Virus record (IMG/VR): IMGVR_UViG_2851949629_000009
Span: 1-23,710 of that record
Reading direction: 5' to 3' (one strand)
Source: a virus
Taxonomy: Duplodnaviria; Heunggongvirae; Uroviricota; Caudoviricetes
Length of the DNA: 23,710 nucleotides
Positions 12,001 through 15,000 of the stretch are shown piece by piece. Within the stretch, counting starts at the first letter, position 1. Every line of letters begins with the position of its first letter. Made by a program: the position numbers.

Positions 12001-15000
12001 CAGCTTATACAGGGAAGTCAGTAGCGGTTTACTCTGCATTTGCCTGACCGCCAGGCGTTCAGACACCGGCAACCCGCGTATTTCGTGCTCAATGGCGTAC
12101 AGTTCGCCGATTAGTTTCAGTGCTTCTTCCGCCGTCGCGCTTTTGGTACTGATATATACATCGTGGATTTTGCGCCGCGCATGAGCCCAGCATCCTGCTT
12201 CCGTCAACGCGCCGCCTTCACGTTCGGCACTGAACAGCCGATCGTAACCTGCGAACGCATCTGCCTGCAGGATACCCCGGAAGGGACGAAGGTGTTGCTC
12301 CGGATGTTTACCCTGATGGTCCGGTGAGTAGGCGAACCAGACCGCCGGAGGTTCTGGCGAACCGGCATTTCGGTCATCCCGGACATACGTCCAGATATAT
12401 CCTGTTTTCGCCTTCTTCCTGCCCGGTGCCAGTACTTTTACTGGTGTGTCATCAGTGTGAACCTTGCGGGTGTTCATCACATAACTGTACAGGGCATCAT
12501 TCACCGGTGTCATTAACTGGCAGCACGCATCAACCCAGTTGGAGAGTAAGGCACGGCTCAGTTCGACACCCTGGCGGGCAAAGATTTCACTCTGACGATA
12601 CAGTGGCAGGTGTTCGCAGTATTTTCCCGTTAACACGCGGGCAAGTAACCCCGGGCCCGCGATACCACGCTCTATCGGACGGGATGGTGCCGGTGCTTCA
12701 ACGATGCAGTCACATTTTGTACAGGCTTTTTTTACCCGTTCTGTGCGGATCACTTTCAGGGCGCTGCTCACCAGCTCCAGTTGTTCTGCGCTGACTTCCC
12801 CCAGATAATCCAGCTCACCGCCACACTCCGGGCAACAGCTTTCTTCAGGCTCCAGGCGGTATATTTCACGGGGGAGATGTGCCGGTAACGGACGACGATG
12901 GCGCGACTGTCGCAACTGGCGGGGAACCAGCGGGTCATCCTCACGCCCACTGTAACGATCGCTTTCCTGCTCGCGTTGTTTCAGCAGGACTTCAGCCTGT
13001 TCAACCTCACTACGCAGTTTTTCAGAACGGGTTCCGAACAGCATCCGGCGCAGTTTTTCTATCTGAGCCCGCAGATGCTCTATTTCTCGCTCATCTTCTT
13101 CGATCTTTTCTTCGGCACGTGCCAGTGCAGAGCGCAGGAAGGCCTCCGTCTCTTCAACCAGACTCAGTTGCTGGTCTTTCTGACGGAGGGCTTCAGCCTG
13201 CTCAGAGAGCAGCCTTTCCAGCTCAGCGATGCGAATGAGGTATTTCTGACCCATGGCCGTTTTTATAATCCGGCCCGGCGTTTTTTACAACATTGTCAGT
13301 GCGTTAAGGCGGGATGTTTTTGGCTGACGCCAGTCCAGCTTATCGAGGAGCATTGCCAGTTGCGAGCGGGTAATGGATATCTTACCGTCATGCACCGCAG
13401 GCCAGATAAACTGACCTTCCTCAAGGCGTTTGGTGAACAGGCACAGACCATCAGCATCAGCCCACAGGATTTTAATCGTGTCTCCCCGTCGGCCACGGAA
13501 GATAAACAGGTGACCGGAGAAGGGGTTATCATCCAGCACATGCTGTATCTGCTCCCCCAGACCGTTGAAGGATTTACGCATATCAGTAACGCCGGCAACG
13601 AGCCAGATACGGGTACCTGATGGGAGTGAAATCATCGTCCCCTCCCGGTCAGCTCACGGATCAACACCGTGAGCAGCTCTGGTGAAGGATTTTCCAGCAT
13701 CATTTTACCGTAATGGAATTCCACATGGCAGGAAGCTGCACAAGCAACTGATAATGCCTCCGGAGCAGGAGCATCTGTAGCACAGCGCGGGGTGTCGATA
13801 AGTTCCACTGGAACCAGAGTCGGAGAGGCCGGAAAAGATTGTGATACTGTAGGGCCTACAATAGTTGGAGGCATTCTACGAGAAATACGTCCTTCTCTTT
13901 GCCAGAGGCGTAGCCATTTAAAAATCAGGTTGTTATCAACGCCATGTTCCCGGGCCAGTTGTGCAACATTGGCATTTGGTTTCGAAGCCAGTTCAACCAT
14001 ATGAAGTTTAAATTCATTAGAAAATATCCGGCGGGTTCCGGAGCGCCAGTCTGTAGGTTTATCCATCAATAGAACTCCGTCTAATTTAGAAGGAGCTCTA
14101 ATTTAGTCTGCAAGGAGCAGGTGTTACAGACGGCATTGGCTTTACGCTTACACCTACCTCACCACCAAAGCCATTTTACATGAGGAAAACATCATGACGG
14201 TAATCGTGTACGGGAAATCAACATTTACAGGAAATGCCAAAACTCGCCGTCATGAGCGGCGCAGAAAGCTGGCTATCGAGCGTGATGCTATATGCAACAT
14301 CATCGATTCGATCTTCGGTACAGACAGTGATGAACCTGTTCAGAAAGAACCGAGAAAGCGTTTAAGCCTTTCTGAAAAAGCAATATCACTCGGCAACATT
14401 CGTAACCAAAATACCGACGAATGCAATGGAAGCATTTGCCTGCCAAACGTAGCCATCTACGTGGCAGGCTATCGGAAATCAAAACAACTGACGGCGAGGT
14501 AATTATGGATATTTCATGTATTGAACAATTACTAATTGAGAAAACGAAAGAAATGCTTGATGTATTGGACAAAAAAAATATCTGAGTTAAAAGATACACC
14601 CGCGACACAACTTATTCTCGAACGTAGTCGAAATAAATTCTTAGAGTTAAGCCCTGACGTTCAAAATATAGCATCTAAACTGCTGGCTACGTTGATTGAG
14701 AGGAATGCATTGTTATCGATGTCATCAGATGAACGAAAAAAACTGACGAACGAAGATGTTGCAACCATCCGCCAGGCATTCGAAATTTTGTTCTCTTAAT
14801 TACTTACTGTTTATTCTGATAATCTCATCAAGAATTTTTTCATAAACAACTGTGCTTGGCTTTCCGTCAATGCCAGGGGCAAGATTACCGGCTCTGATAA
14901 GCTCAACAATAATCTGTTGAGCGGCTTCGTGTGGGTTGGTTTTGGGATTAACAATATCTGTCATAACAAAGCCCTTCTTTTGACTGTGGAAACAACAGTC

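What the first reader, a model, noticed from the sequence alone, without database searches (positions are those of the whole stretch)
14505..14799. Gene downstream of N split by an A8 homopolymer
A well-initiated ORF (ATG 14505, GAGG SD) stops after 26 codons at the end of an A8 run, while the continuing reading frame encodes a further 73 plausible codons. A 7-A tract would give one ~100-aa protein. This is either a frameshift pseudogene, a sequencing error in a homopolymer, or a slippage-prone (phase-variable or programmed) site.
Basis: seen in the sequence. Interest (0 to 1): 0.45.

Follow-up and report, generated by a model that had tools for sequence, protein, structure and literature searches.

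The report
Inherited frameshift in prophage orphan gene
The small gene after the phage N gene is broken by one extra A that is inherited across many E. coli prophages; it is an ordinary frameshift, not a sequencing error or a genetic switch.

Summary
ATG 14505 follows a GAGG Shine-Dalgarno. Twenty-six codons end at TGA 14583-14585, just after an A8 run (14571-14578). The +1 frame then carries 73 more codons to TAA 14799. Every intact homologue (5 complete E. coli genomes, 4 viral contigs, 1 metagenome contig, 10 protein clusters) is a 97-codon ORF, and its tract reads GAC-ATA-AAA-ATA (A-T-A5), not A7.

The frameshifted copies form one clade. They share four substitutions and one extra A. A sister haplotype reads A-T-A6. 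The window's haplotype has a further T>A that fuses the run into A8, plus A81T.

The 79-aa product that only the A8 allele can encode sits on 192 public contigs, so sequencing error is excluded. No A10, repaired or intermediate product exists among about 15 billion proteins. The single A7 contig differs from A8 relatives only by three one-base homopolymer deletions, which is an assembly artefact. No recoding signal, RNA structure or Rfam match was found. The intact protein is a roughly four-helix ORFan of unknown function.

Verdict: a fixed frameshift in an accessory prophage gene. In this window an IS66-family element also separates PL-nutL from N. Low interest.

The parts
14194..14502 (+). 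N antitermination gene (102 aa, P22-type arginine-rich motif GNAKTRRHERRRKLAIER), immediately upstream of the target gene
   Evidence: Pfam PF25694 E=2.8e-38 and PHROG 271 E=4.3e-39. The exact protein is indexed in 446 blocks of public assemblies.
14496..14499 (+). GAGG Shine-Dalgarno, 5 nt before ATG 14505 and inside the end of N (the N stop is TAA 14500-14502)
   Evidence: Read directly from the sequence. Invariant in all homologues except CP191567 and CP163132, which read AAGG.
14505..14799 (+). The whole disrupted gene: an ORFan accessory gene of 97 codons in intact relatives, 295 nt here instead of 294
   Evidence: Alignment with five intact E. coli copies. Haplotype table. Intact alleles have pN/pS 0.28, and the frame is open in 35% GC DNA where the other five frames have 2-10 stops.
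14505..14585 (+). 5' fragment: 26 codons plus TGA (MDISCIEQLLIEKTKEMLDVLDKKNI*). It covers most of predicted helix 1.
   Evidence: Helix boundaries come from the AF2 model (mean pLDDT 64.6).
14571..14578 (+). A8 tract, the site of the +1-nt frameshift. Intact relatives read ATAAAAA (7 nt) and the sister frameshifted haplotype reads ATAAAAAA (8 nt).
14560..14799 (+). 3' fragment in the +1 frame: a 79-aa ORF from ATG 14560 (MYWTKKISEL...) with no recognisable SD. Its upstream end is open only because the T>A removed the TAA present in the A-T-A6 allele. The last 73 codons (14578-14796) equal residues 25-97 of the intact protein.
   Evidence: Gene callers report this product on 192 contigs (P0011).
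14800..14964 (-). Convergent 54-aa gene. Its stop abuts the stop of the target gene (TAATTA), and it always travels with the target gene as a two-gene cassette.
   Evidence: Annotated as WP_000129979.1 in all five E. coli records. Its upstream region is identical in every locus read. PHROG 27767 E=9.6e-10, unknown function.
11611..14150 (-). IS66-family element (tnpA/tnpB/tnpC-like ORFs) inserted about 40 bp upstream of the N start codon, flanked by the duplicated target CACCTACC(T)
   Evidence: BLAST of IS-free relatives L006, L007, L010 and L027 against the window shows a clean 2,540-bp insertion with a 9-bp overlap. ORFs are listed. The sequence ends were read.
11430..11465 (+). nutL-like site: boxA-like GCTCTTTAAC followed by the P22-type boxB GCGCTGACAAAGCGC. 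The IS now separates it from N.
   Evidence: Read. The identification of boxA and boxB rests on established knowledge of P22 nutL, not on a tool result.

Best explanation
This is a genuine, vertically inherited frameshift mutation in a small accessory ORFan gene. The gene lies directly downstream of N in the early-left (PL) operon of a lambdoid E. coli prophage. The ancestral gene encodes a 97-aa, predicted four-helix protein, and its sequence at the site is GAC-ATA-AAA-ATA (D-I-K-I).

In one lineage a single A was added to the A5 run, giving A-T-A6. Translation from ATG 14505 then stops after 26 codons. In that allele the downstream frame is also closed by a TAA inside the tract. In a sub-lineage that includes this window, a later T>A substitution merged the two A runs into A8. 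That change happened to remove the TAA, so the 3' part now reads as a 79-codon ORF from an internal ATG (14560) that has no ribosome-binding site.

The tract is stable, not a switch. The most likely consequence is loss of the full-length protein. At most, trace read-through by spontaneous +1 slippage of tRNA-Lys could occur, or weak reinitiation at ATG 14560.

Because PL transcripts are N-antiterminated, no polar effect on the downstream genes (ral, DUF2528 and others) is expected. This is an inference. In this particular window the operon is additionally cut off from PL-nutL by an IS66-family insertion.

Shown: the extra base, its inheritance, the order of haplotypes, and the absence of length variants. 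Inferred: loss of function, no polarity, and the direction of the mutational steps (by parsimony).
For: All intact copies are single 97-codon ORFs with ATAAAAA at the site. These are 5 of 5,426 complete E. coli genomes, 4 IMG/VR contigs and 1 metagenome contig, and 10 protein clusters that all read D-I-K-I-S.

The frameshifted copies share four substitutions plus the extra A. They split into A-T-A6 (L006, L009, L012, L013, L019) and A8 (window, L007, L008, L010, L014, L021-L026). The A8 group carries two further changes, T>A in the tract and A81T.

The A8-specific 79-aa product is on 192 contigs in 347 index blocks, named E. coli. It occurs in at least two different downstream mosaic contexts.

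Exact look-ups among about 15 billion proteins found none of the following: an A10 or A6/A9 product, a repaired sister-haplotype product, or an intermediate haplotype.

The only A7 contig (L027) differs from A8 loci over 5 kb by 0 mismatches and three 1-nt homopolymer deletions. One of these breaks another gene.

The 121 nt spanning the tract and the sequence downstream of it show no RNA structure (z=0.17), and there is no Rfam match.

The intact gene looks coding. It has one open frame in 35% GC DNA and pN/pS 0.28, though from only 3 synonymous and 3 non-synonymous changes.
Against: Loss of function is inferred, not measured. The C-terminal 73 codons remain free of stops, and gene callers treat the 79-aa ORF as a gene. 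The frameshifted clade is at least as abundant in public assemblies as the intact alleles (192 contigs for A8, against 115+42+17 and smaller counts for intact variants), so it is not obviously deleterious. The T>A both lengthens the slippery run and opens the downstream frame, which could be read as compensatory. Too few substitutions have occurred since the frameshift (one, A81T) to test for relaxed constraint. Products of A9 or A6 variants would seldom be called by gene finders, so out-of-frame length variants are poorly sampled.
Confidence: 0.8

Rival explanations
1. Sequencing or assembly error: the true genome has a 7-nt tract and an intact gene.
For: Homopolymers are classic sites of indel miscalls. 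One public contig (L027) does show a 7-nt tract on the same haplotype.
Against: The same 8-nt state is present in every other copy of the clade read here (15 loci plus the window). The A8-specific product is on 192 contigs from NCBI, ENA and Logan assemblies. The extra A is also present in the A-T-A6 sister allele, where the run is only 6 long. L027 is itself the error-prone assembly, with three homopolymer deletions in 5 kb and no mismatches.
Confidence: 0.01
2. Phase-variable (contingency) locus: slipped-strand mispairing at A8 switches the gene ON (A7 or A10) and OFF (A8) at high frequency.
For: An A8 run in a coding region, placed early in the gene, is the right geometry for an ON/OFF switch. 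One A7 instance exists.
Against: The in-frame variants would be readily called as 97- or 98-aa genes. They are absent from about 15 billion proteins apart from the single artefactual contig. The A8 allele has kept the same length while being recombined into different prophage mosaics. The frameshift predates the homopolymer, as the A-T-A6 sister shows. Intact alleles have an interrupted, non-slippery tract.
Confidence: 0.03
3. Productive recoding: full-length protein is made from the A8 allele, either by transcriptional slippage (an mRNA with A7 or A10) or by +1 ribosomal slippage of tRNA-Lys on AAA-AAA-A. Either way the gene stays functional at a reduced level.
For: +1 re-pairing of tRNA-Lys on the A run is perfect and would yield D-K-K-I-S, a near-wild-type protein (from the sequence). 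Slippage on A8 or A9 runs is used by some IS elements and rescues some frameshifted genes (PMC1088944). The T>A lengthened the run from 6 to 8.
Against: In E. coli reporter assays the host RNA polymerase showed no detectable slippage on runs shorter than eight A. It showed no rescue by deletion on any poly(A) run tested (PMC6260861), and deletion is the direction needed here. Selection against runs becomes evident only at 9 nt in many genomes (PMC1088944). There is no hungry or stop codon directly after the slip site, no upstream SD-like stimulator and no downstream structure. The tract is not conserved in any diverged homologue, because the family is a single >=95%-identity cluster.
Confidence: 0.06
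4. Split-gene or neo-ORF: the T>A was selected because it removed the TAA in the downstream frame. This would allow a 79-aa N-terminally truncated protein (helices 2-4) to be made from ATG 14560 by termination-reinitiation after the 26-codon ORF.
For: In A-T-A6 the downstream frame reads ACA-TAA. In A8 it reads ACA-AAA and is open back to ATG 14560, 25 nt upstream of the frame-0 stop. The 79-aa ORF is called on 192 contigs.
Against: There is no SD before ATG 14560. The truncation removes most of predicted helix 1 (a low-confidence model). Among the 23 longest contigs with this N allele, A-T-A6 and A8 copies are about equally common (about 12 against 10), so A8 shows no evident advantage. A single substitution is fully compatible with drift in a dead gene.
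Confidence: 0.1

Closest known systems
Ordinary frameshift pseudogenes in prophage accessory (moron-like) genes
   Same: A single-base insertion in a short A run truncates a non-essential prophage gene. The lesion is inherited clonally and spread by mosaic recombination. The remaining frame is still open because the event is recent.
   Different: Nothing substantive. The only twist is that the homopolymer seen today (A8) was created after the frameshift, by a T>A in an A-T-A6 tract.
Homopolymer contingency loci (phase-variable genes, e.g. poly-G/C or poly-A tracts in Haemophilus, Neisseria, Campylobacter and Helicobacter surface or restriction-modification genes)
   Same: A mononucleotide run near the 5' end of a coding region, whose length determines whether the full protein is made.
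   Different: No length polymorphism among about 190 copies. Intact alleles lack the run altogether. E. coli has proficient mismatch repair, and an A8 run is short for a switch.
Programmed transcriptional realignment (Thermus dnaX A9, IS-element A9/A8 fusions, Shigella mxiE T9, Citrobacter rodentium tssM poly-A)
   Same: An A run at the junction of two overlapping frames. A slipped transcript would fuse them.
   Different: Those tracts are conserved across diverged homologues and are usually at least 9 nt. Here the tract is a derived state of one haplotype. It needs a deletion-type slip, which E. coli RNA polymerase did not perform detectably on poly(A) (PMC6260861).
Programmed +1 ribosomal frameshifting (prfB CUU-UGA-C with an upstream SD)
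   Same: The required shift is +1, and a frame-0 stop lies nearby.
   Different: The stop is two codons beyond the slippery codons, not in the A site. There is no SD-like stimulator 3 nt upstream. The site is not conserved.
Genes occupying the N-ral interval of lambdoid phages (e.g. sieB in lambda and P22)
   Same: The position in the PL operon directly after N. The pairing with a gene that can be expressed independently of PL (here the convergent 54-aa gene).
   Different: No sequence, family or fold similarity was detected. The function is untested.

Membership tests
Frameshift pseudogene (disrupted copy of an otherwise intact gene) | Close homologues encode one uninterrupted ORF spanning both fragments | tested here: met
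   Five complete E. coli genomes, four viral contigs and one metagenome contig carry a 294-nt ORF. Ten protein clusters cover 100% of the repaired query at 95-97% identity.
Frameshift pseudogene (disrupted copy of an otherwise intact gene) | The disruption is a real genomic state, reproducible in independent assemblies | tested here: met
   The A8-specific 79-aa product is on 192 contigs. Ten further loci read directly show A8, and five show A-T-A6.
Frameshift pseudogene (disrupted copy of an otherwise intact gene) | Loss of the functional product | not testable with these tools
   This needs proteomics or Ribo-seq of an induced lysogen. Only indirect arguments are available (no recoding signals; PMC6260861).
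Phase-variable contingency locus | Tract-length polymorphism among closely related copies, including in-frame (ON) lengths | tested here: not met
   A10 and the other variant and intermediate products looked up are absent from about 15 billion proteins. The A7 product is present once. That contig has 0 mismatches and 3 homopolymer deletions against A8 loci, which marks it as an artefact.
Phase-variable contingency locus | The repeat tract is a conserved feature of the gene family | tested here: not met
   All intact alleles read ATAAAAA, interrupted by T.
Programmed transcriptional slippage | A slippery run (typically at least 9 A or T) conserved at the frame junction in diverged homologues | tested here: not met
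   The run is 8 nt and confined to one haplotype. No diverged homologues exist. Thresholds are from PMC1088944 and PMC6260861.
Programmed transcriptional slippage | Heterogeneous transcripts and a fused protein product | not testable with these tools
   This requires RNA-seq or amplicon sequencing of cDNA, plus mass spectrometry.
Programmed +1 ribosomal frameshift (prfB-type) | A slippery P-site codon followed directly by a stop or hungry codon, with an SD-like stimulator upstream | tested here: not met
   The sequence is GAC-AAA-AAA-AAT-ATC-TGA. The stop is two codons after the last AAA. The upstream 12 nt (GATGTATTGGAC) have no SD-like element. There is no downstream structure.
Lambdoid N antiterminator (for the upstream gene named in the finding) | Match to the N peptide family above the curated threshold, with a cognate nut site upstream | tested here: met
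   PF25694 scores 130.9 bits against a cut-off of 27.9. The P22-type boxB GCGCTGACAAAGCGC is at 11451-11465 (the boxB identity rests on established knowledge).

The most novel reading that the evidence does not exclude
The T>A that turned A-T-A6 into A8 may be a second-site suppressor rather than drift. It removes the TAA that closed the downstream frame, and it creates a perfect tRNA-Lys re-pairing run. Part of the gene's function could then be recovered in one of two ways. A 79-aa protein could be reinitiated at ATG 14560 after the 26-codon leader ORF. Alternatively, low-level +1 slippage could make a full-length D-K-K-I-S protein. That would be a small natural example of stepwise rescue of a frameshifted phage gene.
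Probability: 0.1. Interest if true: 0.35.

Novelty: new member of a known kind. Interest (0 to 1): 0.12.

Why it matters
It matters mainly for annotation. The 79-aa "hypothetical protein" that pipelines call on about 190 E. coli contigs is the 3' remnant of a frameshifted 97-aa gene and should be flagged as such. The case also shows that a homopolymer at a frameshift site need not be the cause of the frameshift. Here the run was completed by a later substitution. Biologically it is a routine example of decay of an ORFan accessory gene in a prophage, and it opens no long-standing question.

Tried and rejected
Function of the intact protein was not recovered by any route:
- Pfam gave nothing significant (best E=0.053).
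- PHROGs gave only a weak HTH family match at E=1.4e-3.
- PADLOC gave nothing.
- Full HMMER search of 1.84 billion representatives returned only the gene's own cluster and one weak 36-residue partial hit.
- The AF2 model has low confidence (pLDDT 64.6).
- Foldseek against PDB found nothing better than E=3.9.

Searches for more homologues:
- The phage collection has no DNA match.
- GTDB species-representative genomes have no relative.

Recoding signals: no RNA structure downstream of the tract and no Rfam match.

The lone A7 contig was considered as a true revertant or an ancestral relic. This was rejected because its only differences from A8 loci over 5 kb are three homopolymer deletions.

An alternative history was considered in which T>A came first (giving A7), the +A followed, and A-T-A6 arose independently. 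It is less parsimonious (3 tract events against 2), and no genuine A7 or repaired sister haplotype is on record.

A literature search by RefSeq protein accession found nothing. Two paper-reading runs failed on term length.

Full report
**1. The observation**

- The upstream gene (14194-14502) is an N antiterminator (Pfam PF25694, E=2.8e-38; PHROG 271). It carries a P22-type arginine-rich motif.
- Its stop, TAA 14500-14502, is followed two bases later by ATG 14505. GAGG at 14496-14499 lies 5 nt upstream of that ATG.
- Frame 0 reads MDISCIEQLLIEKTKEMLDVLDKKNI and ends at TGA 14583-14585.
- The A8 run occupies 14571-14578.
- The +1 frame continues for 73 codons to TAA 14797-14799.
- Deleting one A gives a 97-aa protein.
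- An A8 run as such is not unusual: there are 2 in the window against 2.5 expected.

**2. What the homologues show**

The gene is rare. Only 5 of 5,426 complete E. coli genomes carry it, and no record in the phage collection does. No GTDB species-representative genome carries it either.

The gene is also an ORFan. A word-indexed search of 5.8 billion proteins returned 10 clusters, all at least 95% identical. A full HMMER scan of 1.84 billion representatives returned only its own cluster, plus one weak 36-residue partial hit.

Every one of these homologues is an uninterrupted 97-codon ORF. Some are annotated from an upstream start as 120-125 aa.

At the site they do not read A7. They read GAC-ATA-AAA-ATA, that is D-I-K-I, an A-T-A5 tract.

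**3. The frameshifted clade**

I looked up contigs that encode exactly this window's N protein (446 index blocks) and scanned viral and metagenome contigs with a length-tolerant pattern. Three tract states appeared:

| Tract | Length | State | Loci |
|---|---|---|---|
| ATAAAAA | 7 nt | intact | L001-L005, L015-L018, L020 |
| ATAAAAAA | 8 nt | frameshifted | L006, L009, L012, L013, L019 |
| AAAAAAAA | 8 nt | frameshifted | window, L007, L008, L010, L014, L021-L026 |

The haplotype table shows that the two frameshifted states form one clade. They share four substitutions relative to the intact alleles, three synonymous plus A85V, and the extra A. The A8 haplotype has two additional changes: the T>A inside the tract, and A81T.

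The most parsimonious history is A-T-A5, then +A to give A-T-A6, then T>A to give A8. So the frameshift arose in a 5-A run.

A side effect follows from the sequence. In A-T-A6 the downstream frame reads ACA-TAA and is closed. In A8 it reads ACA-AAA and is open back to ATG 14560. This creates the 79-aa ORF MYWTKKISEL….

**4. Not a sequencing error**

The 79-aa product can only be encoded by the A8 allele. It is on 192 contigs (347 index blocks) from NCBI, ENA and Logan assemblies, named E. coli. It occurs with at least two different downstream gene modules. The extra A is also present in the A-T-A6 sister allele.

**5. Not a phase-variable switch**

I looked up the exact products expected from other tract lengths and from intermediate haplotypes among about 15 billion proteins. 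These covered A6, A7, A9 and A10 tracts on this haplotype, repaired A-T-A5 versions of both frameshifted haplotypes, and intermediates. Only one exists: the A7 product, on a single 7.7-kb Logan contig (L027).

Compared with A8 loci L008 and L010 over 5 kb, L027 has zero mismatches and exactly three one-base deletions. All three are in homopolymers (A7>A6, A8>A7, T3>T2), and one of them splits a 156-aa gene. This is the signature of homopolymer under-calling, not of a revertant.

One caveat applies. Products of out-of-frame variants (A9, A6) are short and would rarely be called as genes. The test is therefore strong for OFF-to-ON changes and weak for OFF-to-OFF changes.

**6. No evidence for programmed recoding**

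The shift needed is +1, or a one-nucleotide deletion in the mRNA.
- There is no stop or rare codon directly after the slippery lysine codons.
- There is no SD-like stimulator upstream.
- There is no downstream RNA structure (z=0.17) and no Rfam match.
- In published E. coli reporter assays the host RNA polymerase showed no detectable slippage on fewer than eight A. It showed no rescue by deletion on any poly(A) run tested (PMC6260861).
- Selection against runs becomes evident at 9 nt in many bacteria (PMC1088944).
- The tract is not conserved in any diverged homologue, because none exists.

Spontaneous +1 re-pairing of tRNA-Lys on the run is sterically perfect and would give a D-K-K-I-S protein. 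Trace read-through therefore cannot be excluded.

**7. What was lost**

The intact gene looks like a real coding gene. It has a single open frame in 35% GC DNA, while the other five frames carry 2-10 stops. Its pN/pS is 0.28, though from only 3 synonymous and 3 non-synonymous changes. It also has a good SD and is tightly coupled to N.

AF2 gives a low-confidence all-helical model (pLDDT 64.6; helices 3-30, 32-47, 50-69, 74-96). The frameshift at codon 24-25 cuts within helix 1.

Function could not be assigned. There is no significant Pfam match. PHROGs gives one marginal HTH match (E=1.4e-3). PADLOC gives nothing, and Foldseek against PDB gives nothing significant.

The gene always travels with a convergent 54-aa gene (14800-14964, minus strand) as a two-gene cassette. 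The cassette sits between N and variable downstream modules.

**8. Context in this window**

An IS66-family element (11611-14150, minus strand) is inserted about 40 bp upstream of the N start codon. It is flanked by a duplicated CACCTACC(T). It lies between a recognisable nutL (P22-type boxB at 11451-11465) and N. The relatives compared directly (L006, L007, L010, L027) lack it.

A second IS66-family copy, about 90% identical and in the opposite orientation, lies at about 370-2821.

The whole early-left operon of this particular prophage is therefore probably poorly expressed, whatever the state of the tract. This is an inference.

**9. Verdict**

This is a real, fixed, inherited one-base insertion in an ORFan accessory prophage gene. 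It is an ordinary frameshift pseudogene. Automatic pipelines annotate its 3' remnant as a 79-aa hypothetical protein.

The second (sequencing error) is excluded. The third (phase-variable or programmed site) is not supported.

The least ordinary reading still open, at about 10%, is that the T>A is a partial suppressor. It could allow reinitiation of a 79-aa protein or low-level +1 slippage.

Interest is low.

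Noticed in passing
window 11611-14150 (minus strand); target duplication at 11602-11610 and 14151-14159: An IS66-family element (tnpA/tnpB/tnpC-like ORFs) is inserted between nutL (boxB 11451-11465) and the N start codon. This uncouples N and the whole early-left operon from PL. The relatives compared directly (L006, L007, L010, L027) have an uninterrupted junction.
   Followed up: partly
window ~370-2821 (+) and 11606-14150 (-): Two IS66-family copies, about 90% identical, lie in inverted orientation. They bracket the prophage replication and immunity region (O/P-like, cII, cro, cI). They could mediate inversion or behave as a composite element.
   Followed up: no
window 14975-14992 and 15008-15025: An 18-nt direct repeat, TTCYTTTGACTGTGGAAA, occurs twice, 33 nt apart. 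It lies immediately upstream of the start of the 54-aa reverse-strand gene (ATG at 14964 on the minus strand). It may be an operator or promoter element. The proximal copy is identical in all loci carrying the cassette.
   Followed up: no
window 14800-14964 (-): A 54-aa gene (WP_000129979.1; PHROG 27767, unknown function) is convergent with the frameshifted gene, with abutting stops (TAATTA). The two always co-occur as a cassette at the N-ral position, where lambda and P22 carry sieB. No terminator-like site was found for it, so its transcript would run antisense into the 97-aa gene and N.
   Followed up: partly
window 15105-15191 (+): A 28-codon, extremely acidic and aromatic ORF (MEEEFEEFEEHPQDVMEQYQDYPYDYDY) with a strong SD (AAGGTGAT). 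It overlaps the start of the Ral-family gene (15175-15375). It is conserved in all loci that carry the ral-type module.
   Followed up: no
L001, L002, L005 (E. coli RefSeq records) and protein clusters P0001-P0006: Annotation pipelines often start the intact gene 23-28 codons upstream, inside the 3' end of N in another frame (120-125 aa). The SD-preceded ATG directly after the N stop (97 aa) is the more plausible start, so the long form is probably a start-site over-extension.
   Followed up: no
L027 (Logan contig ERR10608951_2557): This contig shows three one-base homopolymer deletions and no substitutions relative to near-identical contigs. It illustrates that single Logan contigs can carry homopolymer indel artefacts that mimic gene repair or gene breakage.
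   Followed up: yes
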